A DNA stretch of 64,000 nucleotides from Candidatus Parcubacteria bacterium (GCA_039796155.1 JBDKKJ010000009.1:15077-79076); one strand, 5' to 3'; positions 12,853 to 53,288 are shown, counted from the stretch's first letter. Notes: generated by a model from the sequence alone, not told the origin. A program made the numbers and translations.

Positions 12853-13193
12853 TGTCAGAGTTTAATTTTCAAATCCTTCACCAAGACCTTTTTCCTGATA
12901 GATCGACGGAACAATCCTTTACCTTTTCTAATCGTCCCACGGTCAAAGTTATTCTTTTAGATAGCGATAACAAAATATGCTTAACCTCTAAAAAAGGAAG
13001 CGGTTTTTATTTTCTTCCTGGAGGTGGCATAGAAAATACAGAAGATCCGATTCAGGCATTAAAGCGTGAGTGTCTCGAGGAGGCTGGTTGCCATGTTGAA
13101 GTAAAACGTAAAATAGTAACCATAAAATGTTTTAACGTTTACTTCTATCTGAGCGATAGCAAGCATGGCGTTTTTCAGAGCGTTTCGTTCTGA
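12852..13193 (+). pseudogene. NUDIX hydrolase, C-terminally truncated fragment
   Basis: NUDIX box LPGGGIENTEDPIQALKRECLEEAGC. Recognisable sequence ends near nt 13103. The remaining ORF tail is the antisense of the converging nrdB fragment. Confidence 0.6.
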
Positions 13194-13658
13194 TTCGGTG
13201 ACACGGACCTTAAAGTCCTGAATGTCGCTCGTGTAATTAAATTCTGTGTGTATCCAGTACGAGTGGCGGACAGCATCTACGTATTCTATGAGTTCAGGGT
13301 ATTCAAATGGCTTTAAATGAACTCGTTTTTTAAAAATATTGCGCTTGCGCAAGAGTGCGTACTCGTTTCGATATAAAATGTAGGCCTTTGCCACGTCGTG
13401 GAAATTGCTTTCCATGAGAGTTTGTTCGACGACGTCTTGGATATGTTCGACAGAAGGGCATTGTGCACATTCGTCGACCAGCTTTTCTTCAACTTTTTGT
13501 GCTACGAGGAGGGCATCGATAGCTGTTCCGTGCTTGGTGGCGTGCATGGACTTCTCCACAGCTCGAGTAATCTTTTTTAATTGAAAGGGGACAACGGATC
13601 CGTCGCGTTTAGTAATGGTCGTGAAGCGTGTATAGGGGGATTCAGTTGTTTTTTTCAT
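13059..13658 (-). pseudogene. ATP-cone domain fused to the N-terminal part of an RNR small subunit (NrdB-like), truncated
   Basis: ATP-cone (ITKRDGSVVPFQLKKITRAVEKS...VEHIQDVVEQTLMES...AKAYILYR), then an NrdB N-terminus (HSYWIHTEFNYTSDIQDF...TESERNALKNAMLAIAQIEVNVKTF). Similarity stops near nt 13125, so only about 185 aa of an expected 400+ remain. The likely start is ATG 13658. Confidence 0.6.
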
Positions 13659-13710
13659 AGATATTGTTATATTGATAGTCGTCAATGGATTATAATATAG
13701 ATACTCATCT

Positions 13711-19277: not shown

Positions 19278-40046
<20,769 letters not shown>

Positions 40047-40065
40047 TGATACTCAGCAGGAATAT

Positions 40066-40102
40066 TAAAAAACAGCGCCAACATGAGTGGTGCTGTTTTT
40101 TC
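40066..40102 (+). terminator. Intrinsic terminator after the giant ORF
   Basis: Stem aacagcgcca (40071-40080) / tggtgctgtt (40088-40097), followed by tttttt. Confidence 0.75.
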
Positions 40103-40164
40103 TTGAAAAAATACGTGGACAAAAAAAGAGTGTGGGTGTCGAGCGAAGTATGTCAGTACACCTT

Positions 40165-40200
40165 TCCTACTTTTGATCAAATTTTAATCAAAAGCAGGAA
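40165..40200. repeat. Palindromic element, copy 1 (core TTGATCAAATTTTAATCAA)
   Basis: tcctacttttgat-caaatttta-atcaaaagcagga. It is paralogous in position and core to 42426-42476. Confidence 0.6.
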
Positions 40201-40283
40201 GGATCACAAAGGGTACTAGGTGCCCCTAAGTCGCGTTCACACATATCCCCATTTTTATCTTTCCTTTATCTTTCCCTTTGGCA

Positions 40284-40292
40284 TGCGATAAT
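40284..40292 (+). promoter_or_regulatory. Extended -10 element TGcGATAAT, 8 nt upstream of the LamG-1 ATG
   Basis: The conserved string catgcgataata appears before both LamG genes (also 42537-42545, 8 nt before ATG 42554). There is no Shine-Dalgarno sequence in between. Confidence 0.45.
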
Positions 40293-40300
40293 AGGTATAT

Positions 40301-40381
40301 ATGAATATGAAGCAACGCATCCACGGCACTGTATTTTTCTGTACTTTATTACTTTCTACTCTCATGATGGGCTTTTTTTAA
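40301..40381 (+). CDS. LamG-1 segment 0: signal peptide ORF, cut off at a T7 run
   Basis: MNMKQRIHGTVFFCTLLLSTLMMGFF-stop. Adding one T at 40373-40379 joins it to ...LKADRVQAASTAKT of the 40393 ORF. Confidence 0.65.
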   Translation: MNMKQRIHGTVFFCTLLLSTLMMGFF

Positions 40382-40392
40382 AGGCTGACCGT

Positions 40393-41922
40393 GTGCAGGC
40401 TGCCAGTACAGCAAAAACAGTTACAAACAGCGGCCTTATGGGTTGGTGGTCTTTTGATGAAAACACAGGCACCATCGCTCATGATTTTTCTGGAAATGGA
40501 AATGACGGCACTCTCACCAATAGTCCTACATGGGTAAGAGGGAAACGTGGCGGGGCACTTTCCTTTAATGGATCAAATACGTATGTGGCAGGACCCTCAA
40601 TTTCAATCTCGAACACGATTACCGCTTCTGCCTGGGTATACTCTTCCAACTTTAACCAAAATGGTTTCGTGATTGGGAGAAATCCGGTAAACACGCAGTG
40701 GGAACTCTTTTTTGAGGCAACCGTACTCCGTTGGCGTGGTGGAGCTGCTGAGAATACCGTATTTTGTAATATACCCACAAATAATAAATGGCACCATATT
40801 GTGGGAACACAGACGGGTACGACAGGAACGCTCTATATTGACGGGGTGCAGTGCGGTACAGGAACAGTCACCGCTATTGGAAATGCCGCGGGTACAGTCG
40901 ACATTGGTCGCTTTGCAAGCGCGTATCACTTTAATGGTTTGATTGATGATGTGAGACTCTACAATCGTGTACTAACTGCCAGTGAAGTTGCTGCGCTGTA
41001 TCGTTCGGGTGAAGTGGTGAGGAAAAATGTATCAGCAAATGGTTTGGTGGGGCACTGGAGTTTAGATGAGGGAACTTCAACTATTGCACATGATTTTTCG
41101 GGTAATAGTAGAACAGGCACCCTCGCTAACTTTAGTACTCCTACATGGGTGAATGGAAAATTTGGGAAAGCTCTCACTTTTGATGGTGTTGATGATTCTG
41201 TAAATATAGGGAGTCTCGGTGCTTTTCCTGCACAGGGAACTATTTCTTTTTGGATGAATCCTGCTGTTGTTGAAAACTATCGTAATCCTTTTACCACAAA
41301 TCTAAATGGATTGAACGTAGGTATCCGTTTTGAAGAATATACTACAGTATCACCGTATGGTGGTTTTAGTGCTGTAGTTGGAAACGATGCGGGTACGTAT
41401 GCTGCTGCGTCCTATAGTCCGACGGCCGTTCTTCGACCTAATACGTGGTACAATGTTGTACTTTCGTGGGATACGGGTACAAATATACTCACCGGTTATT
41501 TAAACAATGTGCTCGCATTTAGTATTTCACATTCACTGTGGCCGACAACAATGCCAGCGGTAGCGATCGGTAACGGTTTCAACACAGCACGCTACTGGTC
41601 AGGAAAAATGGATGAAGTCAGAATATATAATAGAATTTTATCCGCCTCAGAAATTTCAACTCTCTACACTCAGGGTGCTATCACTATAAACTCATCTCAA
41701 AACACAAAGCTCACAAACGGTCTCATTGGCCTCTGGAGTTTCAATGGGGCGGATATGAACTGGACCAGCGCGAGTGCGGGTACTGCGTATGATAGGTCAG
41801 GACAACAAAATCATGGAACACTTGTAAATATGTCTCAATCGAGTTCTCCTGTCAGCGGGGTCGCAGGTCAGGGACTTGATTTTGATGGTGTTAATGACTA
41901 TATTTTTCGGCAAGCAATATAG
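40393..41922 (+). CDS. LamG-1 segment 1: concanavalin-A-like lectin/LamG repeat protein (domains 1, 2 and the start of 3)
   Basis: Repeated pattern GL.G.WSFDE.TGT.A.D.SGNGN.GTL......W..GK.G.AL.F.G.....DDVR.YNR.L...E..ALY, typical of Laminin_G_3. Confidence 0.8.
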   Translation: MQAASTAKTVTNSGLMGWWSFDENTGTIAHDFSGNGNDGTLTNSPTWVRGKRGGALSFNGSNTYVAGPSISISNTITASAWVYSSNFNQNGFVIGRNPVNTQWELFFEATVLRWRGGAAENTVFCNIPTNNKWHHIVGTQTGTTGTLYIDGVQCGTGTVTAIGNAAGTVDIGRFASAYHFNGLIDDVRLYNRVLTASEVAALYRSGEVVRKNVSANGLVGHWSLDEGTSTIAHDFSGNSRTGTLANFSTPTWVNGKFGKALTFDGVDDSVNIGSLGAFPAQGTISFWMNPAVVENYRNPFTTNLNGLNVGIRFEEYTTVSPYGGFSAVVGNDAGTYAAASYSPTAVLRPNTWYNVVLSWDTGTNILTGYLNNVLAFSISHSLWPTTMPAVAIGNGFNTARYWSGKMDEVRIYNRILSASEISTLYTQGAITINSSQNTKLTNGLIGLWSFNGADMNWTSASAGTAYDRSGQQNHGTLVNMSQSSSPVSGVAGQGLDFDGVNDYIFRQAI

Positions 41923-41948
41923 CATTTTCAGGCAATGCTGAATTTACG

Positions 41949-42374
41949 ATGTGTTCATGGATAAAGTGGAATGGTGCTTGGAGTAGTGATTATCCATCAT
42001 TTATGGGTAACAATAGTACCGGTGTGACAAATCAAGGTCTTTCTTTTACTGTTCGCGACGGTCGTCCTGCAATAGATTTTTGGGTAAATAGATTCAGGGC
42101 GGATAATGCTCTTTTGATTAATACGTGGTACCACGTTTGTGGAACAAAAACTCCTGGTCTTATTTCCGCAACATCAAAGTTATACGTGAATGGCGGACTG
42201 GTTACAGGTGCGGTTGAAGGTTCAGATACAACACCAAACATTACCGCGTCACCTGCTATACTTGGTCGACTCGATGCAACACGATGGTTTAAAGGGGTGG
42301 TTGATGAATCACGTTATTATAACCGCGCTCTCTCAGCCGCCGAAATAAAACAACTTTACCTCATGGGAAAATAG
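41949..42374 (+). CDS. LamG-1 segment 2: remainder of the third LamG domain
   Basis: The frame is open from 41898 (YFSASNIAFSGNAEFTMCSWIKWNG...VDESRYYNRALSAAEIKQLYLMGK). It joins segment 1 through the T5 run at 41903-41907. Confidence 0.8.
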   Translation: MCSWIKWNGAWSSDYPSFMGNNSTGVTNQGLSFTVRDGRPAIDFWVNRFRADNALLINTWYHVCGTKTPGLISATSKLYVNGGLVTGAVEGSDTTPNITASPAILGRLDATRWFKGVVDESRYYNRALSAAEIKQLYLMGK

Positions 42375-42425
42375 TAGATTGATGTGTACCTAAACTATCC
42401 CGTACAAGGAGGGATACATACCTCT

Positions 42426-42476
42426 GAGACCCCTCTGGTTTTTGATTAAATTTTAATCAAAAACCAGAGGGGTCTC
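42426..42476. repeat. Palindromic element, copy 2 (core TTGATTAAATTTTAATCAA)
   Basis: Near-perfect 51-nt palindrome gagacccctctggtttttgattaaa-t-tttaatcaaaaaccagaggggtctc. Confidence 0.7.
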
Positions 42477-42553
42477 AAGGCATACATACTAGCCTTGCCG
42501 CCATCGCTGCGCTCATTTTAATCTTTCCTTTAGACATGCGATAATAAACATAT

Positions 42554-43807
42554 ATGAAGCGGCAAAGCTATCTCGTGCATATTTTTTCTCTGTTCTCGGC
42601 TCTGTCTATGCCCGTATGTATGTTTGCATTTCTGTTTGTCGTCGCGCCAACCCCGATCCACGCCGCAATCACTCAAAAAGTTGCCACAACTACAGCCGGG
42701 CTCATAGGTTGGTGGACCCTGGATGAGGGTACGAGCACAACAGCAACTGATTTTTCCCAAAGTAGGAATGCGGGCGTCCTCCGAAACGGAGCGCTGTGGG
42801 CTACAGGTAAAAGGGGTAAAGCAATCAGTCTCGATGGTCTCAATGATTACGTTGAGATCCCTTCGTCAGCAGCACTGACCTATACGGGTGGGGATATCAC
42901 TTTCTCTGCATGGATAAACCCTAACAACACCGAGGCGGATGGGGGAACCATAATATCAAAGCCTTGGAACGGTAATGGTGAATATAATTATTATCTCACC
43001 TATGCGGGAAGCGGAGTTTTTAGCATAGCTCTCTATGGTGCAACTGCCTTTAGTTTTGCCACCACTCGAACTTTACCCCGTAATCAGTGGAGTTTTGTAA
43101 CAGTTACTATATCGAGCTCAAAAGTTATAAATATATATTTTAATGGAGTTTTGGCTGGAACAACGTCTCATGCAATTTCAAGCTGGGTACCACCGAGTGG
43201 AAACGGCTCTTTGCCCTTTAGTATTGGAACAGTATATCCCTATGGCGAAGGATGGGGTGGCAACACAAGTCACGCCTTTAATGGAAAAATCGACGATGTC
43301 CGTGTTTACAATCAAGCTCTGACAGCCAATGAAGTTTCAGCATTATACCGACTGGGAGAGACAGTACGAAAAGTGGCCGACAAGAAAGGTCTTGTGGGGT
43401 ATTGGCCTATGGATGAAGCTACTTCGACTACGGTAGGGGATTTTTCTGGCATGGGTTATAACGGTACTCTGAGTGGTTCTCCTGTACCCACATGGGTAAA
43501 TGGAAAAAAGGGTATGGCTCTTAGTTTTGATAATAATCGAAACTACGTAGAAACTAACCAAGTATCAGTTTTTAATATGGGAACGCAAAATTTTACACTT
43601 GCTGCATTTGTAAAAAAAATAATAATACAGCTCGTGTTATTTATGAAAAAAGAGGTAGTGGTTTATTGGGCTATCTTTTTGTTTTGGATTATCCATCGGC
43701 GGGCCAGGCAGCAGTCTTTCTCAATGATCCAATCGGAGGACAAGATGTTTACACTTTTTCTTCTCCAGGATCAATGCCTGTTGGCGCGTGGTTTCATGCG
43801 GCTGTAG
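42554..43807 (+). CDS. LamG-2 segment 1: secreted 3xLamG protein (signal peptide, domain 1, part of domain 2)
   Basis: Signal peptide MKRQSYLVHIFSLFSALSMPVCMFAFLFVVAPTPIHA, then LamG pattern. Real homology ends at the A8 run (43612-43619). The rest of the ORF is out-of-frame read-through. Confidence 0.8.
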   Translation: MKRQSYLVHIFSLFSALSMPVCMFAFLFVVAPTPIHAAITQKVATTTAGLIGWWTLDEGTSTTATDFSQSRNAGVLRNGALWATGKRGKAISLDGLNDYVEIPSSAALTYTGGDITFSAWINPNNTEADGGTIISKPWNGNGEYNYYLTYAGSGVFSIALYGATAFSFATTRTLPRNQWSFVTVTISSSKVINIYFNGVLAGTTSHAISSWVPPSGNGSLPFSIGTVYPYGEGWGGNTSHAFNGKIDDVRVYNQALTANEVSALYRLGETVRKVADKKGLVGYWPMDEATSTTVGDFSGMGYNGTLSGSPVPTWVNGKKGMALSFDNNRNYVETNQVSVFNMGTQNFTLAAFVKKIIIQLVLFMKKEVVVYWAIFLFWIIHRRARQQSFSMIQSEDKMFTLFLLQDQCLLARGFMRL

Positions 43808-44670
43808 GAGTTGACCGGGTAAACAACACCGCTACTTTTTATAATAATGGCATTGCTATGCAGACGGTGAGTATTGCCGGGACAACAGGGAGTATTGATA
43901 GCGACGGGACTTTAAAAATCGGTTATGACCTCGGCGGCTTTTCCTTTAATGGTTCAATGGATGATGCGCGAATATATTCTCGAGCTCTTTCAGGTGATGA
44001 GGTGGCAATCATCGCTAAATCAAATCAGACAAAAATAAATGCGCCTCAGGATACCAAGCTGACGGGCGGTTTGGTGGGGTACTGGACATTTAATGGTAAG
44101 GACATAAATGGTTCTACTGCTTCAGATGTGAGTGGTCAAAATAATCATGGCACATTTGCAAATACTCAAAATAGTATCGGAAAAGTCGGACAAGGAATGG
44201 TTTTTAATGGTGTGAGTAGTCTCATGACATTGTCTTCTTCGATCAGCATTGCTGGTGGCGCGTGGACGATTGCCTCATGGTTTAAATACCCGCTTGGCCC
44301 AAGTGGTAGCTGGAATACTCTCACACGAGGCGTCAGTGCTGATCACCAGGTAATCATTCAATCAGATGGTCAGTTGGGTACGTATGATAACGGAGGATTA
44401 GGATTTGTTTCAAGTGGTTACAATATGTCGACACTTGCACCAAATGCAGGTTGGCACCATCTCACAGCTGTCGGGTCTGGTTCGGTAACATCATTCTATA
44501 TTGATGGGGTGTTTGTCGGATCCTCTGCTTTTAAATCGTCGTCGCAAATATCGTATGTAGGAAACTATCAGGGTGGTGGACAGCAGTTTGGTACTATTGA
44601 TGAAGTTCGAGTATATACCAGGGCACTTTCTGCCGCCGAAGCAAAACAACTCTTTCTCATGGGTAAATAA
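43666..44670 (+). CDS. LamG-2 segment 2: rest of domain 2 and domain 3
   Basis: The frame reads KNNNTARVIYEKRGSGLLGYLFVLDYPSAGQ... from 43612 onward and ends IDEVRVYTRALSAAEAKQLFLMGK, parallel to the LamG-1 end. Confidence 0.8.
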   Translation: MGYLFVLDYPSAGQAAVFLNDPIGGQDVYTFSSPGSMPVGAWFHAAVGVDRVNNTATFYNNGIAMQTVSIAGTTGSIDSDGTLKIGYDLGGFSFNGSMDDARIYSRALSGDEVAIIAKSNQTKINAPQDTKLTGGLVGYWTFNGKDINGSTASDVSGQNNHGTFANTQNSIGKVGQGMVFNGVSSLMTLSSSISIAGGAWTIASWFKYPLGPSGSWNTLTRGVSADHQVIIQSDGQLGTYDNGGLGFVSSGYNMSTLAPNAGWHHLTAVGSGSVTSFYIDGVFVGSSAFKSSSQISYVGNYQGGGQQFGTIDEVRVYTRALSAAEAKQLFLMGK

Positions 44671-44679
44671 TGATATAAT
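44671..44679 (+). promoter_or_regulatory. Extended -10 promoter element TGaTATAAT upstream of gap
   Basis: Exact TGnTATAAT at 44671-44679. An 8-bp inverted repeat aatgtatc...gatacatt (44677-44704) sits between it and ATG 44705. Confidence 0.45.
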
Positions 44680-44704
44680 GTATCCATAAAAATATAGATA
44701 CATT

Positions 44705-45760
44705 ATGGCAACAAAAAAAATCAGAGTGGCTATTAACGGTTTCGGTCGCATCGGACGCGCGTTTTACAAGGCATCAAAAGGCAGAGAAGACGTTGAGGTT
44801 GTGGCAATAAACGACCTTGGAGATATCAAAAACATGGCGTATCTACTCAGATACGACACGGTCTACCGTGGAAGTGGTCTTGAGGTAAAGGTTAAAGAGG
44901 GTGACAAGCCAGTTCTCATTATTGATGGCAAAGAAGTTCTTTTCATCAGCCAGAAAGAACCAACACTTTTGCCATGGAAGGACCTCAATATTGATGTTGT
45001 TGTTGAATGTACCGGTCTCTTTACTACATACGAAAAAGCAAAGGTTCACTTGGTTGCCGGTGCAAAGCGTGTTGTTATTTCTGCTCCAGCTAAAGACGAT
45101 CCAACCGCAGAAAATCCTGGTATGACAGTGCTCATGGGTATTTCAAATGACCGTATTACAAAAGAAAGCGAATCTGCTCCTATTTCTTCAAACGCTTCAT
45201 GTACTACAAATGCAGGTAGTCCGCTCATCGCCATTCTCGACGAGACTATTGGTGTTGAAAAAGCACTTCTTAACACTGTTCACGGATACACAGCGAGCCA
45301 GGGAATTGTTGACGGTCCAAACAAGAAGGATTTCCGTGAAGGACGTGCCGGCGCAATGAACATTGTGCCTTCAACTACCGGTGCGGCCATTGCTGTAACC
45401 AAAGTATTGCCACAACTTCAGGGTAAATTCGACGGTATCTCTATTCGAGTTCCTGTTGTTGCAGGTTCAATCGTAGACATCACTTTCATTTCAAAGCGAC
45501 CAACTACTAAGGAAGAGGTTAATGAAATTCTAAAGAAGGCAGCTGGAACAGCGCGCTGGGAAGGAATATTTACTGTGACCGAAGAGGAGTTAGTTTCATC
45601 TGACATCATCGGAAATCCTCATGCTTCTATCGCTGATCTCAAGTTCACTCGCGTTGTGGGTGGAAATCTCGTAAAGGTTCTCGGCTGGTACGACAATGAA
45701 TGGGGTTATACAAATACTCTTGTTCGACATGTTGTTGAAGTGGGTGCGACAATTAAGTAA
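44705..45760 (+). CDS. gap: Glyceraldehyde-3-phosphate dehydrogenase, type I
   Basis: INGFGRIGR Rossmann motif, active-site SNASCTTN, WYDNEWGY near the C-terminus. Confidence 0.93.
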   Translation: MATKKIRVAINGFGRIGRAFYKASKGREDVEVVAINDLGDIKNMAYLLRYDTVYRGSGLEVKVKEGDKPVLIIDGKEVLFISQKEPTLLPWKDLNIDVVVECTGLFTTYEKAKVHLVAGAKRVVISAPAKDDPTAENPGMTVLMGISNDRITKESESAPISSNASCTTNAGSPLIAILDETIGVEKALLNTVHGYTASQGIVDGPNKKDFREGRAGAMNIVPSTTGAAIAVTKVLPQLQGKFDGISIRVPVVAGSIVDITFISKRPTTKEEVNEILKKAAGTARWEGIFTVTEEELVSSDIIGNPHASIADLKFTRVVGGNLVKVLGWYDNEWGYTNTLVRHVVEVGATIK

Positions 45761-45768
45761 AGATCAAC

Positions 45769-46278
45769 GTGTTCATCCGAGGTCACGAAAAAGGATTCAC
45801 ACTCATAGAACTTCTCGTGGTGATTTCAATCATCTCACTTTTGTCGAGCATTGTTTTGGCTTCTCTCAATAGCGCACGACAAAAGGGCCGCAACGCACAG
45901 AGGTTGAGCGACATGGCTCAAATTAAGAATGCGTTAGAACTTTATTATAACGACTATGGAAACTACCCCGTAGTAACAAACGGTGTAGACACAAGTTGGC
46001 GCAGCGAATGCGCATCGTGGGGAGCATTAGCGAATAACGCTGTGATACCAGGGTTTGTTCCCACCTATATAAAGGTGCTTCCAAAGGATCCGATTATGGT
46101 GCCAGCAAATAGTGACTCGTGCTATATCTATCGCTCTGATGGCGCTGGCTTTGCTTTTCTTATGCATGACAACTCACCGCCGTGGAGTGATGGGGCGATT
46201 CCTGTTAAGTATGCTGACCCCACCAGACCAACACATGCTTGGAAGCTCTGCTACGGAACTACTCAGTGTGCGTGGTAA
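45769..46278 (+). CDS. Prepilin-type N-terminal cleavage/methylation domain protein (type IV pilin / pseudopilin)
   Basis: Leader MFIRGHEKG followed by FTLIELLVVISIISLLSSIVLASL (class III signal). Small Cys-containing globular domain. It starts 8 nt after the gap stop. Confidence 0.8.
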   Translation: MFIRGHEKGFTLIELLVVISIISLLSSIVLASLNSARQKGRNAQRLSDMAQIKNALELYYNDYGNYPVVTNGVDTSWRSECASWGALANNAVIPGFVPTYIKVLPKDPIMVPANSDSCYIYRSDGAGFAFLMHDNSPPWSDGAIPVKYADPTRPTHAWKLCYGTTQCAW

Positions 46279-46310
46279 TAAATTGTCCATAATTTAGGTA
46301 TAATAGACCT

Positions 46311-46766
46311 ATGAAAATTTATATAGCCTCTGATCATGCTGGTTTTGAACTTAAGAGCTTTCTTGTAGAGAGAATTTCTTTGGCGGGTCACGAAATTAAG
46401 GATTTGGGGCCAAAGACATTTGAACCGGAGGATGATTATCCAGATTATATTTCTCTGGTAGCAAAAGAAATCGCACGTGACCCTTCAGCGGCAAAAGGAA
46501 TTGTGATTGGGGGTTCTGGTCAAGGAGAAGCTATTTGCGCTAATAAATTCTACGGTGTCCGTGCGGCGCTTTATTACGGTGGTAACATGGATATTGTAAA
46601 ACTCTCACGCGAACACAATGATGCAAACGTGCTTTCGCTCGGTGCGAGGTTTGTCTCAACTACAGAGGCGATGAATGCGGTAAACATATGGCTCTCAACA
46701 CCGTTTTCAGGTGATGAACGACACAAGCGACGTCTTCTTAAACTCTTTAATATTAAACACGTATAA
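46311..46766 (+). CDS. rpiB: Ribose-5-phosphate isomerase B
   Basis: MKIYIASDHAGFELK..., GIVIGGSGQGEAICANK, ANVLSLGARF. Confidence 0.88.
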   Translation: MKIYIASDHAGFELKSFLVERISLAGHEIKDLGPKTFEPEDDYPDYISLVAKEIARDPSAAKGIVIGGSGQGEAICANKFYGVRAALYYGGNMDIVKLSREHNDANVLSLGARFVSTTEAMNAVNIWLSTPFSGDERHKRRLLKLFNIKHV

Positions 46767-46771
46767 CTGTC

Positions 46772-47479
46772 ATGACAGAAATTATTCCCGCAATCCTTCC
46801 GAAATCGTACGCAGAACTCGAAACTGGTATTTCAATTGCTACCGGACATACTCCGGTAATTCAGATTGATATTTGTGATGGTGGATACGTTCCGTCACGC
46901 ACGTGGCCGTACCTCAAGGGTCCGAATGTTGAGGACATGATTTTCAATGACATCGTTGCTCAAGAAAAGGCTCTTCCGGGTTGGGAAGAGACTGACTTCG
47001 AATTCGATTTGATGATAAAAGGCGCATACGAAAAGATTCCTGACTTTATTTCCGCTGGTGCCGCTCGAATTATCGTTCACAAGGGAAGTGTTGATGCGGA
47101 TGAAATGGCAAATGTCCTCCGTGATTACGGAAAACACTCAGAGGAACTCGGTCCTTTTGATGTTGAGCTTGGTATTGCTCTTATGCCACAAGACAAAGCA
47201 GAGTCTATTGCTAATATTGTAGATACGATTCACTTTGTGCAGGTTATGGGTGTTGAAAAGATTGGTTTTCAGGGTCAGCCAGCGAGTCCGCATGCAGTGG
47301 AGCTCATTCGCAACCTCCGAAGCATGTATCCGAACCTTGTTATCTCTGTCGATGGTGGTGTAAACATTGAATCAGCACCTGACTTTTTGAATGCGGGAGC
47401 GAATCGATTAGTTGTGGGTAGTGCGCTCTTCGGAAATGATGATTTTCTTGGTACACTAGAAGAGTTTCGAGCACTTTAG
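46772..47479 (+). CDS. Ribulose-phosphate 3-epimerase-like TIM-barrel protein (divergent)
   Basis: IIPAILP..., IQIDICDGGYVP, FDLMI, ISVDGGVN, VVGSALF follow the Rpe strand pattern. It sits in a pentose-phosphate context between rpiB and tkt. Confidence 0.65.
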   Translation: MTEIIPAILPKSYAELETGISIATGHTPVIQIDICDGGYVPSRTWPYLKGPNVEDMIFNDIVAQEKALPGWEETDFEFDLMIKGAYEKIPDFISAGAARIIVHKGSVDADEMANVLRDYGKHSEELGPFDVELGIALMPQDKAESIANIVDTIHFVQVMGVEKIGFQGQPASPHAVELIRNLRSMYPNLVISVDGGVNIESAPDFLNAGANRLVVGSALFGNDDFLGTLEEFRAL

Positions 47480-47505
47480 GTGCTCGCACTGTCGGTTGAA
47501 ACCAC

Positions 47506-48399
47506 ATGGCACTTTCTACACAAAAAATAAAAGAGATTGAGATCAAGGCAAATTCAATTCGTGAATCGATTATTGAAATGCTTATCGCTGCAGGTTCAGG
47601 ACATACCGCGGGACCACTTGATATGGCAGATATTTTTGCCACACTCTATTTCCACACACTCAATCACAAGCCAAAAGAGCCGAAATGGGATGGCCGTGAC
47701 CGCCTCATACTTTCAAATGGTCATATTTGTCCGGTTCTGTACGCATCGATGGCACATGCAGGATATTTTCCGGTAGAAGAGCTCAAAACACTGCGTAAAT
47801 TTGGTTCACGTTTACAGGGTCATCCTCATCGTGAGTTTTTGCCTATGCTCGAAACTTCGTCAGGTCCATTGGGTTCTGGACTTTCTCAAGCTGTAGGTAT
47901 GGCGCTCGCTGACAGAATCGACAAGGGTAAAACATCATCAAAACGATTCTATTGTCTAACAGGCGACGGGGAACATGATGAAGGAAATCACTGGGAGGCT
48001 GTCATGCTTGCAGGTAAAGAGAAGCTTCACACGGTTGTATGTATTGTTGATCGTAACAATATTCAGATTGATGGAAATACCGAGGACATTATGCCTCTTG
48101 AACCTTTTGTAAATAAATATATTACGTTTGGCTGGCATGTGATTGAGATTGATGGTCACAATATTGCCGAAATTGCTGCAGCATTTGATGCCGCAAAAGG
48201 TATTTTCGAAAAACCTACCTGTATTATGGCCCATACGATACCTGGCAAAGGCGTAAAGGAGTTTGAATATGACTATCGATGGCATGGCAATCCTCCCGGC
48301 CTCGGTCCTGAAGACAAAATTCCTCGTGCGCAGCAAGGTGCGGTGGCTTTGGCTGAGTTACGGACGTTGGGGAAGAAGATAAGAAGTGAACATGAATAG
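47506..48399 (+). CDS. Transketolase, N-terminal (TPP-binding) subunit
   Basis: GSGHTAGPLDMADI, SNGHICPVLYA, GPLGSGLSQAVGMA, LTGDGEHDEGNHWEA. Confidence 0.9.
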   Translation: MALSTQKIKEIEIKANSIRESIIEMLIAAGSGHTAGPLDMADIFATLYFHTLNHKPKEPKWDGRDRLILSNGHICPVLYASMAHAGYFPVEELKTLRKFGSRLQGHPHREFLPMLETSSGPLGSGLSQAVGMALADRIDKGKTSSKRFYCLTGDGEHDEGNHWEAVMLAGKEKLHTVVCIVDRNNIQIDGNTEDIMPLEPFVNKYITFGWHVIEIDGHNIAEIAAAFDAAKGIFEKPTCIMAHTIPGKGVKEFEYDYRWHGNPPGLGPEDKIPRAQQGAVALAELRTLGKKIRSEHE

Positions 48400-48685
48400 T
48401 ATGAAAAGACTACTTATAAATTTATTTTCACTTGGGTTGATTATTACTGGTTTGCTCTTTACATATGGAGCGATTTTTGGTCCAAGTACTAGCATTGGAC
48501 TGAGTAGTTGGGTGACAATTTGGTTTTCATTTATAATTTTTATATTTCCTTCGATAGTTCTTTTTCTTAGGGAAAGTAATGGAAGTGCTGGATTTTGCCT
48601 TAGCTCAAGAACTAGTATCATTCTTTTAATTACAGCTGGTTTTCTTTGTTTGGTATCACTATTAATACTAATGGAAACTGCATGA
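48392..48685 (+). CDS. Small 3-TM membrane protein wedged between the transketolase halves
   Basis: AT-rich ORF. Its start overlaps the tktN stop, and its TGA (48683-48685) overlaps ATG 48682 of tktC in an ATGA arrangement. It has three hydrophobic segments. Confidence 0.45.
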   Translation: MNSMKRLLINLFSLGLIITGLLFTYGAIFGPSTSIGLSSWVTIWFSFIIFIFPSIVLFLRESNGSAGFCLSSRTSIILLITAGFLCLVSLLILMETA

Positions 48686-49680
48686 TTTCTTCTTCACAAA
48701 AACTCAATCCGAAAGTATTCGACAAAGATGTTGAACAAGTGCCAATCCGAAAAGGTTTTGGTATCGGACTTTTGGCAGCGGGGGAGAAAAACACAAACGT
48801 GGTTGGCCTCTGTGCTGACCTGACTGAATCCACTCAGATGCATTTCTTCCGTGATAAATTCCCCAATCGTTATATTCAAATGGGAGTAGCAGAACAAAAT
48901 TTGGCTGCAGTTGCTTCCGGTATGGCTGCTATGGGTAAGATTCCGTTTATTAGCTCATATGCCATGTTTTCGCCGGGACGCAATTGGGAACAGATTCGCA
49001 CAACCATTGCGTACAATGATGTGCCGGTTAAAATTGTCGGTTCACACGCTGGTGTTTCTGTTGGTCCTGATGGTGGTACACATCAGGCAATCGAAGATAT
49101 TGCCATCACCCGTGTGATTCCAAATATGGTTGTTATTTCACCTTGCGATTCTATTGAAGCAGAGAAGGCAACTAAGGCAATTGCTGAGACCAAACAGCCT
49201 ACCTATATTCGTCTTATTCGCGAGAAAACGCCTGTTATAACCACCGTAGATACTCCATTTGAGATTGGGAAGGCTCGCATCTATTTTGAGCCTATAACAG
49301 GCAAACCAGAGGTTGCGATTATTGCCACCGGTGCACTTCTTCATAATGCTCTTTTGGCAGCTCGTGAACTTGAAAAGGAAAAGATTGGCGTGACCGTGGT
49401 GAACCTTTCAACTATAAAACCTCTTGATGAGGCAACTATTCTCGCAGTGGCTAAATCAGCCGGTACACTCGTAACCCTCGAAGAGCATCAGGCTGCGGGA
49501 GGTATGGGATCGGCTGTAGCTGAATTCATTTCAAGTACCTATCCTGTGCCAGTTATCCGTATGGGTATTCATGACAAATTTGGACAGTCGGGGACACCGG
49601 CAGAACTCATTGAGCACTACGGACTCGGTGTGTCACATATTAAAGAAGCTGCTCGTCAGGCGATTGCTAAGAAAAAATAA
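48682..49680 (+). CDS. Transketolase, C-terminal (pyrimidine-binding) subunit
   Basis: RKGFGIGL..., IQMGVAEQNLAAVASGMA, GPDGGTHQAIEDIA, TLEEHQAAGGMGSAVAE. I prefer ATG 48682. Confidence 0.9.
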   Translation: MISSSQKLNPKVFDKDVEQVPIRKGFGIGLLAAGEKNTNVVGLCADLTESTQMHFFRDKFPNRYIQMGVAEQNLAAVASGMAAMGKIPFISSYAMFSPGRNWEQIRTTIAYNDVPVKIVGSHAGVSVGPDGGTHQAIEDIAITRVIPNMVVISPCDSIEAEKATKAIAETKQPTYIRLIREKTPVITTVDTPFEIGKARIYFEPITGKPEVAIIATGALLHNALLAARELEKEKIGVTVVNLSTIKPLDEATILAVAKSAGTLVTLEEHQAAGGMGSAVAEFISSTYPVPVIRMGIHDKFGQSGTPAELIEHYGLGVSHIKEAARQAIAKKK

Positions 49681-51260
49681 TGATTATCGATCCATTTAAT
49701 ATTCCGCTCTTCGTTACAGATATCTCATACACTCTTTTCTTTTTCCTTACGGTTATATTCGGACTATGGGTCTACCTCAAGAGTTCACACAAGACACTTC
49801 ACGTTATGTATTTACTCATGAGTCTTGCTGTGGGTGTCTATCAGATATCCCATGTGTTTGGTATTACGGTGACTGATTCTGAGGCTTCTCGCACAATCTT
49901 TACGCTCAGTCTTTCAATAATTTATGTTGGCTGTTTTACCGTGCACTGGATTGCTGCTGCTGTTGAAAGGGAAAAGGAATACCTTTGGACTATACTCTCA
50001 ACATACGCGTGTGCTGTTGTTCTCACAGCTTTTTATCTTTTTAAACCAGCAAGCTTTTTGCTCCCTTCAGTACCAAAGCTTTATTTTCCAAATTATTACG
50101 TTGCAGGAAATTATTACTGGCTGCTGGTTGCGTACTTCGCCGTGGTATTTGTCTTGGTTCTTCGAATGCTCATAAAGTCGTATACAATTTCTGACGCACT
50201 CCACAAGAATCGTCTCTCATACTATATTTTTGCCATCTTCATTGGTTTTCCACTTGCAGGCATTGGATTCTTTCTTTCATACAATATTCAGATTGATCCA
50301 ATCTTCTCTGTACCATTTAACTTCTTTATCATTCCATTGGCGTACGGTGTTTTGCGCTATGACATCATGGATGTTAAAACGGCTGCACGTAAGGCTTTTT
50401 CATATGCTGTGTTTGTACTCGGTACAGCCTTCTTTATCCTGGGCGCGAATCTCGGTAATAACTTCTTGGCAGTCGCATATCCAATGGTCCCAGATTGGAT
50501 TTTGCCACTTGTTTCATCACTTCTCATTGTGTTGTTTGCTGGATTTATATGGGAGCGCATGCGAGACCTTGAAACTCTCAAGTACGAATTCATTACCGTC
50601 GTGACACATAAGTTCCGTACACCTCTTACACGAATAAAATGGTCATCAGAGATACTCCGAAAGTGTGAAGGTGTTGATGATGAGCAAAAATCTGCAATTT
50701 CTGAAATAGAAAGTGCAAACGAGCATCTGGTATCGCTTACCGACGTGCTGCTGAATCTTCGTAAAGCAAATGACAGTGCATTTCAATATGAATTTGAGAC
50801 ATATGACATCTGTAGCTTGATTGATCTCACAGTAAAAAATATGAGTAAGCGAATCAAAGACAGAGAGATGGATTTCTCGGTCGTTTGTCCTGAATCACGC
50901 TCAAATGTAAGTCTTGATAAGCGTCGTTTGGCATTCGCGCTTCAGATTGTGATTGATAATGCTATCACCTATACGCCAAAACAAGGAAAAATATCTGTAA
51001 CGGTCTCAAACGAGAGCGGCAGCGTGTATATTAAAGTTAAAGACAGTGGTATTGGTATTGCGAGCGATGATATGAGTCGTATGTTTAGCAAATTCTGGAG
51101 AAGCAAAGAGGCAAAAACTACCGACACAGAAGGAATGGGGATTGGACTCTTTATGGCACGCGAAATTATTGAACGTCACGACGGTGAAATCGATGTGGAA
51201 TCAGAAGGTGTGGGTAAGGCTTCTGTATTTAGTATCAAACTTCCTCAAGCTCAGGCTTAA
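49680..51260 (+). CDS. Sensor histidine kinase with a polytopic N-terminal membrane domain
   Basis: About 7 hydrophobic segments, then HisKA (VTHKFRTPLTRIKWSSEIL) and HATPase_c (DNAITYTP..., DSGIGI..., GMGIGLFMAREI). The start overlaps the tktC stop (TAATG). Confidence 0.85.
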   Translation: MIIDPFNIPLFVTDISYTLFFFLTVIFGLWVYLKSSHKTLHVMYLLMSLAVGVYQISHVFGITVTDSEASRTIFTLSLSIIYVGCFTVHWIAAAVEREKEYLWTILSTYACAVVLTAFYLFKPASFLLPSVPKLYFPNYYVAGNYYWLLVAYFAVVFVLVLRMLIKSYTISDALHKNRLSYYIFAIFIGFPLAGIGFFLSYNIQIDPIFSVPFNFFIIPLAYGVLRYDIMDVKTAARKAFSYAVFVLGTAFFILGANLGNNFLAVAYPMVPDWILPLVSSLLIVLFAGFIWERMRDLETLKYEFITVVTHKFRTPLTRIKWSSEILRKCEGVDDEQKSAISEIESANEHLVSLTDVLLNLRKANDSAFQYEFETYDICSLIDLTVKNMSKRIKDREMDFSVVCPESRSNVSLDKRRLAFALQIVIDNAITYTPKQGKISVTVSNESGSVYIKVKDSGIGIASDDMSRMFSKFWRSKEAKTTDTEGMGIGLFMAREIIERHDGEIDVESEGVGKASVFSIKLPQAQA

Positions 51261-51270
51261 GAAGTCGACT

Positions 51271-51903
51271 TTACATCAATGTCTCTTGTTTGCGTCCCAT
51301 CAGGGCGTTCTTGATTGTCTCTGCATCAGAATATTCAAGTTCAGTACCCGTTGAAAGTCCTCGTCCGAGGATTGAGACTTTAATGCTGTACTGTTTAACC
51401 AGAGGTGCAATAAAGTTTTCTACGTATTCACGGGTATTTTCACCTTCAGCATTGAGTGAGAGAGCGAGAATGATCTCTTTAAGTCCCGCTTTAATGCGCT
51501 GTTCAAGCACAAGTACCAATTCACGAGTGCGGATTTTTGATTCCGGTTCTTTCTCAATGAGCGAAAGTGTGGTACCAAGTACAAAATAGTACCCACGGTA
51601 TGACTTACTCTTTTCGACAACGTCGAGATCGACATCTTTAGCAACAACCATAAGCGACTCATGATCACGGGAATCGTCATGACAGACACTGCAGAGTCGT
51701 CGGTCCATTCCTTTGCTATCAAAGTATCTAAAGCACGATGTACAGACAGTCACACGAGAAGCGAGTTCGGTAATTTCTTTAGCAAGCATTTCCCGGTACC
51801 CGTCTGTGGTGTTCAAAAGGAAATAGACAAAACGCTTTGCTTGGCGAGGCCCAATACCAGGGAACTGTTTAAAGAGATCGTGTAAGCGATTGAGGTGATC
51901 CAT
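51271..51903 (-). CDS. recR: Recombination protein RecR
   Basis: FPGIGPRQAKRFVYFLL (HhH), a C4 zinc finger (CTSCFRY...CSVC), and a Toprim region. Confidence 0.92.
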   Translation of the reverse strand: MDHLNRLHDLFKQFPGIGPRQAKRFVYFLLNTTDGYREMLAKEITELASRVTVCTSCFRYFDSKGMDRRLCSVCHDDSRDHESLMVVAKDVDLDVVEKSKSYRGYYFVLGTTLSLIEKEPESKIRTRELVLVLEQRIKAGLKEIILALSLNAEGENTREYVENFIAPLVKQYSIKVSILGRGLSTGTELEYSDAETIKNALMGRKQETLM

Positions 51904-51908
51904 GTGTT

Positions 51909-53288
51909 TTAAAATCCTCCTACGTCAGATGCCTGGAAAGCTCCAAAGTCAGCCTTTTCAACCGAAAGGAAGGTTGCCTTGTCTGCATCGAATACGAGCT
52001 GGATTTCTCCGGTAGGACCGTTTCGGTGCTTTTCAATGAGAATGGTTGCTTGATTTGAGCGAGCCTGATCACCAGATTCGTCCTTTTCACGGTGAATGAA
52101 CATAACCACGTCGGCGTCCTGCTCGATAGATCCAGAGTCTCGAAGGTCAGAGAGTCGCGGCTTACCTCCGCGGGCTTCCACGGCTCGGGAAAGCTGTGAG
52201 AGGGCGATGACAGGAACCTCGAGATCTCTGGCAAGATTTTTAAGCGATCGAGAGATTTCGGTAACCTGCTGAACAACGTTGTCTTTTGCTGAGTTCATCG
52301 GTGTCATGAGCTGGAGGTAGTCGACAATAATGAGTCCAAGCGATTTTTCAGACTTAAGACGACGAGCAATAGCGCGCATTTTCAAAATATTGTTTCCTGG
52401 CTGGTCGTCGATATAAATAGGGGCCTTGGCGAGCTTTTCCATAGCGTCGCGAATGCGGGTAAAGTCCTGATCAACAGAGAGTCCTTTACCAGTGCGGAGT
52501 TTCCATGCATCAACGCGTGATTCTGCAGCAAGCATACGATCAACAAGTTGTTGAGAACTCATTTCAAGAGAGAAGATTCCAACAGGGATATTGTGGTTTA
52601 CAGCCGCCATACGGGCAATATCGAGGGCAAGCGAAGTCTTTCCCATAGATGGTCGAGCGGCAAGGATGATGAGGTCAGATTTCTGGAAGCCTGAGAGTTT
52701 GTTGTCGAGGGCGGCAAAACCAGTCGGTACGCCACGGAGTTCGTCACGGGTGTTATGTAGTCGATCAATACGGTCCCATGCTTCACCAAGGGTGTCTTTG
52801 AGCTGCACAAACTTGTGCGAACCGATAGCGTTAGTTACGTCAAACAACTTCTTTTCTGCGGTGTCGATAATTTCTTCAAGTTCACCTTCTTCTGCGAATC
52901 CAGTATGAGTAATATGTTCACCGGCTTCAATAAGGCGTCGCATCATGCTCTTCTTTTGCACAATGGTACCGTAGTGGCGAACATTCGATGCTGACGGCAC
53001 AAGCTGAACAAGCTCAGAGAGGTATGATGCACCGCCAACACGATCAAGTGAACCTTCGTCACGAAGTTTTGATGAGAGTGAAATGAGGTCGATTGGATTT
53101 CCCTTAGATGTGAGTGACATCATAGCCTGCCAAATCACACGGTGTTTGTCAGAATAGAAATCTTCTTCTCGTACAACGTCGGTAACTTCATGAATTGCTT
53201 CTGGACGCAGACAAATAGAACCAAGGAGCGCTTGTTCAGCTTCAATCGATTGAGGTGGGACGCGGATGTGATCTCCTTTTCTTTGCAT
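51909..53288 (-). CDS. dnaB: Replicative DNA helicase DnaB
   Basis: PPQSIEAEQALLGS..., Walker A ARPSMGKTS, IIVDYLQLM, and a C-terminal RecA fold. There is no intein-sized insertion. Confidence 0.93.
   Translation of the reverse strand: MQRKGDHIRVPPQSIEAEQALLGSICLRPEAIHEVTDVVREEDFYSDKHRVIWQAMMSLTSKGNPIDLISLSSKLRDEGSLDRVGGASYLSELVQLVPSASNVRHYGTIVQKKSMMRRLIEAGEHITHTGFAEEGELEEIIDTAEKKLFDVTNAIGSHKFVQLKDTLGEAWDRIDRLHNTRDELRGVPTGFAALDNKLSGFQKSDLIILAARPSMGKTSLALDIARMAAVNHNIPVGIFSLEMSSQQLVDRMLAAESRVDAWKLRTGKGLSVDQDFTRIRDAMEKLAKAPIYIDDQPGNNILKMRAIARRLKSEKSLGLIIVDYLQLMTPMNSAKDNVVQQVTEISRSLKNLARDLEVPVIALSQLSRAVEARGGKPRLSDLRDSGSIEQDADVVMFIHREKDESGDQARSNQATILIEKHRNGPTGEIQLVFDADKATFLSVEKADFGAFQASDVGGF

What the first reader, a model, noticed from the sequence alone, without database searches (positions are those of the whole stretch)
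40301..44670. Two paralogous secreted 3xLamG genes are broken by three frameshifts, all at homopolymers and all needing +1 nt (or a -1 slip)
LamG-1 has two breaks. Its signal-peptide ORF (40301-40381) stops at a T7 run (40373-40379); one more T gives ...MMGFFLKADRVQA/ASTAKT, in frame with 40393. Its third LamG domain is split at a T5 run (41903-41907); T6 would read DYIFSASNIAFSGNAEFTMCSWIKW, which aligns with the paralogue's SLMTLSSSISIAGGAWTIASWFKY.

LamG-2 is split at an A8 run (43612-43619); A9 would read FVKKNNNTARVIYEKRGSG.

The giant neighbouring ORF and all housekeeping genes are intact; gap, for example, keeps an in-frame A8 at its start. The defects are therefore concentrated in these two surface-lectin genes.

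I see three possible explanations:
- Slipped-strand phase variation (contingency loci).
- Programmed -1 frameshifting or transcriptional slippage. Site 3 is an A_AAA_AAA heptamer. Site 1 has tRNA-Phe on TTT next to a TAA stop. Site 2 is followed by CGG, which may be a rare codon here (I did not tally codon usage).
- Homopolymer under-calling by the sequencer.
Basis: partly seen in the sequence, partly recalled or inferred. Interest (0 to 1): 0.7.

Follow-up and report, generated by a model that had tools for sequence, protein, structure and literature searches.

The report
Two frameshift-broken surface lectin genes
Two neighbouring genes for secreted sugar-binding (LamG) surface proteins in an uncultivated Parcubacteria bacterium each lost single bases in short A or T runs; the breaks are real mutations and most likely recent gene inactivation, an ordinary process, not a special decoding or switching mechanism.

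Summary
T7 (40373-40379), T5 (41903-41907) and A8 (43612-43619) each interrupt a 3xLamG gene. Adding one base at each restores 691-aa and 705-aa proteins that match intact syntenic orthologues across all three junctions.

- **Real, not miscalls:** three Logan assemblies of other runs show T7/T5/A8, and an NCBI MAG on a different-length contig annotates the same fragments. All 159 homopolymer observations in the Logan contigs agree with the source contig.
- **Concentrated:** 3 of 30 A/T runs of 5 nt or more are broken in the LamG region, against 0 of 191 in other coding sequence (p=0.002).
- **Lineage-specific tracts:** orthologues read GTA AAG AAA AAT, GTT ATT TCA and GCT TTT TCA. No orthologue needs a frameshift.
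- **No recoding signals:** no RNA structure follows any tract.
- **No contingency signature:** the LamG family is depleted in long A/T runs, and about 165 other loci gave only two weak, non-homopolymer frame-transition candidates.
- **Recent:** downstream dN/dS is still low (about 0.1).

Best reading: recent, fixed slipped-strand deletions that inactivate both genes (young pseudogenes), with some leaky rescue possible at A8. Reversible phase variation needs read-level data to exclude. Programmed recoding and sequencing error are unlikely. Interest is low.

The parts
40171..40193 (.). Palindrome core TTTTGATCAAATTTTAATCAAAA upstream of LamG-1
   Evidence: Found only twice in the window, once before each LamG gene; 0 matches expected by chance. 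Aligned with the LamG-2 copy.
40284..40292 (+). Extended -10-like box TGCGATAAT, 8 nt before the LamG-1 ATG
   Evidence: Conserved block CATGCGATAATA..ATATATG shared with the LamG-2 upstream region. Promoter function is inferred. The sigma-70 consensus scan did not list it and found no excess of promoter-like sites in 40000-44750.
40301..40379 (+). LamG-1 5' segment (frame 2): signal-peptide-like N-terminus, ending in the T7 run
   Evidence: ORF 40301-40381. The N-terminus aligns with the orthologues' N-termini.
40373..40379 (+). Break site 1: T7 run. T8 would restore ..GFFLKADRVQAAS..
   Evidence: Orthologues read GCT TTT TCA or TCT TTT CTT. T7 was seen in the source contig and in Logan contigs L002 and L172.
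40380..41907 (+). LamG-1 middle segment (frame 1): LamG domains 1 and 2 and the start of domain 3
   Evidence: ORF 40393-41922. Pfam PF13385. Annotated as the separate protein MEN9622070.1 in the NCBI MAG.
41903..41907 (+). Break site 2: T5 run. T6 would restore ..DYIFSASNIAF..
   Evidence: Orthologues read TAT GTT ATT TCA. T5 was seen in the source contig and three Logan contigs. Recovered independently by the tblastn frame-transition scan.
41908..42374 (+). LamG-1 3' segment (frame 0): the rest of LamG domain 3
   Evidence: ORF 41949-42374. About 93% of nonsynonymous sites are unchanged against L005_1 and dN/dS is 0.09.
42425..42477 (.). Perfect inverted repeat with 26-nt arms, containing the palindrome core, between LamG-1 and LamG-2
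42537..42545 (+). Extended -10-like box TGCGATAAT, 8 nt before the LamG-2 ATG
   Evidence: Function is inferred; the sigma-70 consensus scan did not list it.
42554..43619 (+). LamG-2 5' segment (frame 2): signal peptide, LamG domain 1 and the first part of domain 2
   Evidence: ORF 42554-43807. Pfam. MEN9622072.1 in the NCBI MAG.
43612..43619 (+). Break site 3: A8 run, an in-phase A_AAA_AAA. A9 would restore ..FVKKNNNTARVIYEK..
   Evidence: Orthologues read GTA AAG AAA AAT. A8 was seen in the source contig and in Logan contigs L002 and L004. Recovered by the tblastn scan.
43620..44670 (+). LamG-2 3' segment (frame 1): the rest of domain 2 and domain 3
   Evidence: ORF 43666-44670. dN/dS is 0.12 against L005_2. 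MEN9622073.1 in the NCBI MAG.
19278..40046 (+). Context: intact giant ORF (6,922 aa) immediately upstream. The giant gene followed by LamG genes is a conserved arrangement.

Best explanation
The three breaks are genuine single-base deletions, fixed in this Parcubacteria population. They arose by replication slippage at short A/T runs.

The runs themselves had only recently formed by point substitutions in this lineage. At site 3, for example, a synonymous AAG to AAA change made an A9 run that then lost one A.

The deletions inactivate both members of a tandem pair of secreted 3xLamG (concanavalin-A-like lectin) surface proteins. These sit next to a giant surface protein and are intact in all known relatives. 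The genes are therefore young pseudogenes, or genes in the course of being lost.

LamG-1 has two hits. That is expected once a gene is already dead and further slips are neutral. LamG-2 may have lost its selective value along with its partner.

Shown: the breaks, their reproducibility, their lineage-specific origin, the intact orthologues, and the absence of recoding and contingency-locus signatures.

Inferred: that no functional full-length protein is made, that the loss is irreversible in practice, and that the proteins act in attachment. A small fraction of full-length LamG-2 could still arise from RNA-polymerase or ribosome slippage on A8. That would be adventitious, not programmed.
For: 1. 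The repaired frames match intact syntenic orthologues across all three junctions. Relatives L005, L006-L008 and L009-L011 have single ORFs of 652-720 aa in the same gene order: giant gene, LamG-1, LamG-2, gap.
2. The tracts are lineage-specific and are interrupted in the orthologues.
3. Independent evidence agrees. Logan contigs from SRR35626834, SRR35626827 and SRR35626843 show T7/T5/A8 directly. The NCBI MAG, on a 98,372-bp contig against JGI's 142,931 bp, annotates the same 509-, 141-, 417- and 298-aa fragments. No contig ends at a tract.
4. All 159 other homopolymer observations in the Logan assemblies are concordant.
5. The breaks are confined to these genes: 3 of 30 against 0 of 191, p=0.0023, and the +/-1 edit scan finds no other split gene.
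6. LamG-1 carries two breaks, one at a mere T5 run.
7. No intact allele of this lineage was found in the protein collection.
8. No stimulatory RNA structure follows any site.
9. The family shows no contingency signature. Long A/T runs are depleted in 444 kb of LamG-coding DNA, and about 165 other loci gave only two weak, non-homopolymer frame-transition candidates.
Against: Downstream segments show no decay. There are no in-frame stops after repair, and dN/dS is 0.09-0.12, as low as upstream. Inactivation must therefore be very recent, or the segments are still used.

Both genes keep conserved promoter-like upstream elements.

Three slips with no other lesion, in surface-protein genes, is also what a reversible switch caught in the OFF state would look like.

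The sequencing platform and read-level heterogeneity could not be examined. The samples may come from one site or project, so they may not be independent populations.
Confidence: 0.6

Rival explanations
1. Reversible slipped-strand phase variation. The A8 and T7 tracts act as ON/OFF switches for host-attachment lectins, as poly(A) tracts do in Mycoplasma surface lipoprotein genes. The sampled population happens to be OFF, and the T5 break is a secondary lesion acquired while the gene was OFF.
For: The genes encode secreted surface proteins, the class usually subject to phase variation (PMC3711429). Site 1 lies in the 5' signal-peptide region. A8 and T7 are long enough to be slippery. Downstream frames are fully preserved with low dN/dS. 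The breaks are concentrated in these genes. Both genes keep promoter-like elements.
Against: Consensus tract lengths are identical wherever they can be read. No de Bruijn contig breaks at a tract. The tracts are absent from orthologues at 55-80% identity. LamG-1 needs two simultaneous reversions, including one at a T5 run. Tract density in these genes (0.46 per kb for runs of 7 nt or more) is about the same as in other genes of the window (0.40 per kb). Across 444 kb of LamG-coding DNA, long A/T runs are depleted. About 165 other loci gave only two weak, non-homopolymer frame-transition candidates. The intact paralogue's A7 and A8 runs are stable in five assemblies.
Confidence: 0.15
2. Functional expression by recoding. 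A -1 ribosomal frameshift or transcriptional slippage at each tract yields full-length proteins, so the genes are not defective.
For: Site 3 is an in-phase A_AAA_AAA heptamer. A -1 slip there gives exactly the orthologous sequence. A8 runs can give roughly a tenth full-length product by RNA-polymerase slippage (PMC1088944). At site 2 the P-site Phe codon is followed by the rarest Arg codon, CGG. At site 1 it is followed by a stop. Downstream frames are conserved.
Against: No orthologue needs a frameshift, and the tracts are not conserved. No significant downstream structure exists (z = +0.76, +0.91, -0.32). Thirty in-phase slippery heptamers, including four A_AAA_AAA, occur in intact genes of the window. 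Any 1-nt deletion inside a homopolymer automatically creates a site where a -1 slip re-pairs, so the re-pairing is not independent evidence. T5 and T7 are below the 8-9 nt at which transcriptional slippage becomes productive. LamG-1 would need two successive events. No Rfam element is present.
Confidence: 0.07
3. Sequencing or assembly artefact. Homopolymers were under-called and the genes are intact in the organism.
For: All three defects are 1-nt shortfalls in homopolymers, the classic signature of some platforms. The platform is unknown to me. All assemblies may derive from one project and platform, so a systematic error could repeat.
Against: Three Logan assemblies made directly from reads of other runs are 100% identical to the JGI contig over 2.5-13.7 kb, including the tracts. 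The NCBI MAG annotates the same fragments on a contig of different length. All 159 homopolymer observations agree. Fourteen other A/T runs of 7 nt or more, including the gap A8, are in frame. Another 191 coding runs of 5 nt or more are in frame, so the concentration has p=0.002. The paralogue's A7 and A8 runs are called in frame. A T5 miscall is improbable on any accurate platform.
Confidence: 0.08

Closest known systems
Frameshift pseudogenes formed by replication slippage at homopolymers (ordinary bacterial gene decay; the singleton 'fs-genes' of GeneTack surveys, PMC3711429)
   Same: They are single-base indels inside mononucleotide runs. They disrupt genes that are intact in relatives. They are lineage-specific, include more than one lesion in one gene, and lack recoding signals.
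   Different: They are very young, with no stops and no rise in dN/dS downstream. They strike two adjacent paralogues at once. The affected genes are surface lectins of a Parcubacteria (CPR) organism.
Poly(A)/poly(T) phase-variable surface protein genes (for example the Mycoplasma fermentans P78 poly(A) tract, Theiss & Wise 1997, cited as reference 50 in PMC3711429; details of the A7/A8 switch are from my own knowledge)
   Same: The tracts are A/T runs of 7-8 nt inside the 5' or internal coding region of a surface-exposed protein, in a small-genome bacterium. A 1-nt change toggles the frame.
   Different: No length variation was seen among assemblies. The tracts are not conserved in relatives. 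One break is at T5. LamG-1 has two breaks. The gene family is depleted in long runs.
Rescue of poly(A)-frameshifted genes by transcriptional slippage (endosymbionts; human apoB A8; IS elements with A8/A9; Baranov et al. 2005, PMC1088944)
   Same: Site 3 is an A8 run one base short of the in-frame length. That is the configuration in which RNA-polymerase slippage restores a fraction of full-length product.
   Different: Productive slippage is usually seen at 9 nt or more. Sites 1 (T7) and 2 (T5) are too short. There is no conservation and no expression data.
dnaX / IS3-type programmed -1 ribosomal frameshifting
   Same: Site 3 has an in-phase A_AAA_AAA slippery heptamer.
   Different: There is no downstream stem-loop or pseudoknot. 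The shift is not conserved. Sites 1 and 2 have no canonical heptamer. The same heptamers are common in intact genes of the window.

Membership tests
LamG / concanavalin A-like lectin domain proteins (Pfam PF13385 Laminin_G_3) | Significant match to the domain model | tested here: met
   Each repaired protein has three PF13385 stretches, E 2.7e-63 and 5.1e-66.
Frameshift pseudogene | Reading frame disrupted relative to intact orthologues | tested here: met
   Orthologues in L005, L006-L008 and L009-L011 are single ORFs. The window needs three +1 corrections.
Frameshift pseudogene | The lesion is real, meaning reproducible rather than an assembly error | tested here: met
   Tract lengths are identical in the JGI contig and three Logan contigs, and the NCBI MAG annotates the same fragments. 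All 159 control runs are concordant. Read-level data were not available.
Frameshift pseudogene | Relaxed constraint or decay downstream of the lesion | tested here: not met
   dN/dS is 0.09-0.12 downstream against 0.17 upstream for LamG-2 (0.07 and 0.33 for the LamG-1 middle segment against L006_1 and L005_1). No stops remain after repair. This fits very recent inactivation, but the pairwise test cannot isolate the terminal branch.
Frameshift pseudogene | No full-length product made | not testable with these tools
   Needs a transcriptome or proteome.
Slipped-strand phase-variable (contingency) locus | Tract-length polymorphism within or between populations | tested here: not met
   T7/T5/A8 appear in every assembly that covers them, and no contig breaks at a tract. 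This is consensus level only; read-level heterogeneity is untested.
Slipped-strand phase-variable (contingency) locus | Repeat tract maintained, at varying length, in related strains or orthologues | tested here: not met
   Orthologues have interrupted sequences at all three positions. No relative closer than 80% amino-acid identity was available.
Slipped-strand phase-variable (contingency) locus | Hypermutable tract length and enrichment of tracts in the gene or family | tested here: not met
   T5 is not hypermutable, and A8 and T7 are borderline. Density of runs of 7 nt or more is similar in LamG and other genes of the window. The family as a whole is depleted, 0.19 against 0.34 per kb.
Programmed -1 ribosomal frameshifting | In-phase X_XXY_YYZ slippery heptamer | tested here: inconclusive
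   Met at site 3 (A_AAA_AAA). Not canonical at sites 1 and 2. Thirty such heptamers occur in intact genes.
Programmed -1 ribosomal frameshifting | Downstream stimulatory RNA structure | tested here: not met
   Folding z-scores are +0.76, +0.91 and -0.32 for the 100 nt after each tract.
Programmed -1 ribosomal frameshifting | Frameshift requirement conserved among orthologues | tested here: not met
   All orthologues are in frame. Only two weak, non-homopolymer frame-transition candidates turned up in about 165 family loci.
Programmed transcriptional slippage | A/T run of 9 nt or more (8 in some organisms), conserved at the site | tested here: not met
   The runs are 8, 7 and 5 nt and are not conserved. 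Thresholds are from PMC1088944.

The most novel reading that the evidence does not exclude
The A8 and T7 tracts are newly evolved contingency switches. On this reading a Parcubacteria (CPR/Patescibacteria) episymbiont reversibly turns host-attachment lectins off and on by homopolymer slippage, helped by leaky transcriptional rescue at A8. I found no paper linking phase variation with this radiation in the searched library.
Probability: 0.12. Interest if true: 0.55.

Novelty: new member of a known kind. Interest (0 to 1): 0.2.

Why it matters
As it stands, the practical value is mainly for annotation. Four "hypothetical proteins" in the NCBI MAG (MEN9622070-MEN9622073) are fragments of two disrupted 3xLamG genes.

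It also gives a dated snapshot of gene loss in a CPR bacterium. A tandem lectin pair next to a giant surface protein, conserved and intact in relatives, has just been knocked out by slippage at runs that formed only recently. A second giant-protein/LamG module in the same genome stays intact.

If the lectins mediate host or surface attachment, as is speculated for Patescibacteria (PMC12911398), this lineage may be changing its attachment repertoire.

It would become notable only if read data showed tract-length heterogeneity.

Tried and rejected
1. **Other overlapping same-strand ORF pairs** (43-696/611-1474, 48386-48685/48646-49680, 58384-58836/58733-59104 and others). These are alternative-start extensions of separate intact genes, not frameshifts.
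2. **Shorter LamG-2 orthologue in L010 and L011** (652 against 693 aa). The DNA is identical to L009, so this is only a gene-caller start choice.
3. **JGI metagenome and GTDB genome scans with repaired LamG-2.** No close relative was found (best 46% and 37%). The window's own LamG locus was not returned, so it seems to be excluded. No strain-level comparison came from these scans.
4. **Look-ups through gap, RpiB and the fragments for a divergent strain.** SRR35181981 differs by 4 SNPs at the paralogue, but no contig from it covers the LamG locus.
5. **Short peptides P0225-P0227 clustered with the 417-aa fragment.** They are unrelated sequences and a clustering artefact.
6. **Incomplete homology search.** The search with repaired LamG-2 did not list the window's own 417- and 298-aa fragments, although both are in the collection. 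Failure to find an intact allele is therefore suggestive, not proof.
7. **Rfam scan of the window.** Only one tRNA was found.
8. **Consensus promoter and terminator scan.** Matches were no more frequent than in shuffled sequence.
9. **The rare CGG after site 2 as a frameshift stimulator.** Rejected, because the codon exists only as a by-product of the shift and is not conserved.

Full report
**What is there.** The window is part of a 142,931-bp contig, JGI 3300043416 Ga0451722_0000032 (window base 1 corresponds to contig base 59,643). NCBI names the organism "Candidatus Parcubacteria bacterium", with locus tags RLZZ67_504-507 for the pieces discussed here.

Downstream of an intact 6,922-aa giant ORF (19278-40046) lie two genes for secreted proteins, each with three LamG / concanavalin-A-like domains. 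LamG-1 is broken at a T7 run (40373-40379) and a T5 run (41903-41907). LamG-2 is broken at an A8 run (43612-43619).

The frames step 2, 1, 0 in LamG-1 and 2, 1 in LamG-2, so each break needs one extra base. With those bases added, the genes read through as proteins of 691 and 705 aa. Each has three PF13385 hits, and the two are 32% identical to each other.

**Are the repaired readings the true ancestral ones?** Yes. Three groups of related metagenomic contigs carry the same gene order: giant gene, LamG-1, LamG-2, gap and, where the contig extends far enough, rpiB and the following genes. They are ENA GROS21 scaffolds L005 and L009-L011, and Logan contigs L006-L008. In all of them both LamG genes are single ORFs of 652-720 aa.

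The repaired window proteins align with these orthologues straight across all three junctions. One example is FVKKNNNTARVIYEKRGSG against FVKKNNSTTRVIYEKRGSG. An apparent N-terminal truncation in L010 and L011 is only a gene-caller start choice, because the DNA is identical to L009.

**Where did the tracts come from?** Codon alignments show that the runs are specific to the window lineage.
- Site 3: orthologues read GTA AAG AAA AAT. A synonymous G to A change would create an A9 run, and the window now has A8.
- Site 2: orthologues read GTT ATT TCA, against a repaired window reading of ATT TTT TCG.
- Site 1: they read GCT TTT TCA or TCT TTT CTT, against TTT TTT TTA.

So point substitutions first made or lengthened the runs, and each run then lost one base. 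No orthologue needs a frameshift.

**Are the breaks real?** Logan assemblies built directly from the reads of three other runs (SRR35626834, SRR35626827, SRR35626843) are 100% identical to the window across the tracts. No contig ends at a tract. The NCBI MAG sits on a contig of a different length (98,372 bp). It annotates the same 509-, 141-, 417- and 298-aa fragments as separate hypothetical proteins.

Across the overlapping Logan contigs, 159 observations of homopolymers of 5 nt or more agree with the source, with no gaps at all.

Within the window, 3 of 30 A/T runs of 5 nt or more are frame-breaking in the LamG region, against 0 of 191 in other coding sequence (Fisher p=0.0023). For runs of 7 nt or more the figures are 2 of 2 against 0 of 14 (p=0.008). 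The in-frame runs include the A8 at the start of gap (44713-44720).

An unbiased scan that edited every homopolymer by +/-1 nt found no other split gene. The remaining flags were ordinary gene boundaries. A third LamG paralogue on the same contig (P0031, 687 aa, directly after a 2,579-aa protein) is intact. Its in-frame A7 and A8 runs are stable in five assemblies.

A platform-wide tendency to under-call homopolymers is therefore very unlikely. I could not see the reads or learn the platform.

**Is it programmed recoding?** The evidence is against it. The shift requirement and the tracts are not conserved. The 100 nt after each tract fold no better than shuffled controls, with z = +0.76, +0.91 and -0.32. 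No Rfam family matches.

Site 3 is indeed an in-phase A_AAA_AAA heptamer, and CGG after site 2 is indeed the rarest Arg codon at 0.8 per 1000. But intact genes of the window contain 30 in-phase slippery heptamers, including four A_AAA_AAA. Any 1-nt deletion inside a homopolymer also creates a site where a -1 slip re-pairs perfectly, so these features carry no independent weight.

Published work puts productive transcriptional slippage at runs of about 9 nt. A8 is sometimes enough for roughly a tenth of the product (PMC1088944). Some leaky full-length LamG-2 is therefore conceivable. LamG-1 would need rescue at both T7 and T5, which should be negligible.

**Is it phase variation?** This cannot be excluded without reads, but nothing positive supports it.
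- Consensus tract lengths are the same wherever they can be read.
- The tracts are missing from relatives.
- LamG-1 would need two simultaneous reversions, one at a T5 run.
- Density of long runs in these genes is about the same as in other genes of the window.
- A tblastn frame-transition scan recovered the window's sites 2 and 3 as positive controls. Across about 165 other LamG loci from diverse genomes it found only two weak candidates, neither at a long homopolymer.
- In 444 kb of LamG-coding DNA, long A/T runs are depleted relative to neighbouring genes: 0.19 against 0.34 per kb for runs of 7 nt or more, and 0.014 against 0.063 for runs of 8 nt or more.
- I found no paper linking phase variation with Patescibacteria in the searched library.

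**How old are the breaks?** They are young. After repair there are no internal stops. Pairwise dN/dS downstream of the breaks is 0.12 for LamG-2 and 0.09 for the LamG-1 3' segment. Upstream of site 3 in LamG-2 it is 0.17, and for the LamG-1 middle segment it is 0.07 against L006_1 and 0.33 against L005_1. This fits recent inactivation. It equally fits continued use, and it is the main reason I keep the reversible-switch reading alive.

**Verdict.** The most economical account is ordinary slipped-strand mutation. Runs formed by substitution, each then lost one base, and the deletions are fixed in this population. A tandem pair of surface lectin genes has been knocked out and is now a pair of young pseudogenes (confidence about 0.6). 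The second hit in LamG-1 is what is expected once a gene is already dead.

The rivals are reversible phase variation (about 0.15), sequencing artefact (about 0.08) and functional recoding (about 0.07). That all three need +1 nt is not informative by itself: p=0.125 under equal odds.

LamG/concanavalin-like proteins are thought to help Patescibacteria attach to other cells (PMC12911398). The loss may therefore reflect a change in attachment repertoire, but that is inference.

The finding was well observed and is biologically ordinary. Read pile-ups at the three tracts against control tracts would settle it.

Noticed in passing
window 40171-40193 and 42425-42477; boxes at 40284-40292 and 42537-42545: Both LamG genes are preceded by the same palindrome core, TTTTGATYAAATTTTAATCAAAA, found only at these two places in the window. 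The outer arms differ between the copies but stay self-complementary; the LamG-2 copy is a perfect inverted repeat with 26-nt arms. A conserved CATTTTWATCTTTCCTTTA...CATGCGATAATA block follows, and its extended -10-like box lies only 8 nt before the ATG, which may mean leaderless transcripts. In relatives LamG-2 starts 1 nt after the LamG-1 stop and has no such spacer.
   Followed up: partly
window 40301-42374 and 42554-44670, compared with L005, L006 and L009: The LamG genes look mosaic. LamG-1 domains 1-2 are closest to L006_1 (pN 0.18), while domain 3 is closest to L005_1 (pN 0.07, against 0.43 to L006_1). The LamG-2 3' half has half the dS of its 5' half against L005_2. This suggests domain-level recombination among lineages.
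   Followed up: partly
L176 2262-12064 (same contig, upstream of the window): The genome has a second module of a giant protein (2,579 aa) followed immediately by a 3xLamG protein (P0031, 687 aa). This LamG gene is intact despite carrying in-frame A7 and A8 runs.
   Followed up: partly
window 29328-30193 and about 36378-37244 (inside the giant ORF 19278-40046): The 6,922-aa ORF contains an internal direct repeat of about 870 bp at 85% identity, plus many shorter repeated protein motifs. The ORF is intact and has few long homopolymers.
   Followed up: no
L005 7370-7816; L009 9207-9653; L010 5150-5596; L011 1214-1660: The GROS21 relatives carry a 148-aa gene with a weak PemK-toxin hit between the giant gene and LamG-1. 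The window has only a 254-nt spacer with the palindrome at that position.
   Followed up: no
window 12852-13193: An ORF whose sequence looks NUDIX-like by eye (no domain search was run) is only 113 aa long. It overlaps a minus-strand ORF (13059-13685) and may be truncated at its C-terminus.
   Followed up: no
L130 about 5398; L080 about 6567: These are the only two other candidate frame transitions in LamG-family genes among about 165 loci. L130 is a Woesebacteria MAG and is supported by 9 query proteins. Neither candidate is at a long homopolymer.
   Followed up: no
window 44668-52404 compared with L003 (SRR35626827): One run contains a variant with 11 substitutions and no indels over 7.7 kb downstream of the LamG genes. 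The LamG region from the same run is identical to the window. So at least two closely related strains coexist.
   Followed up: partly
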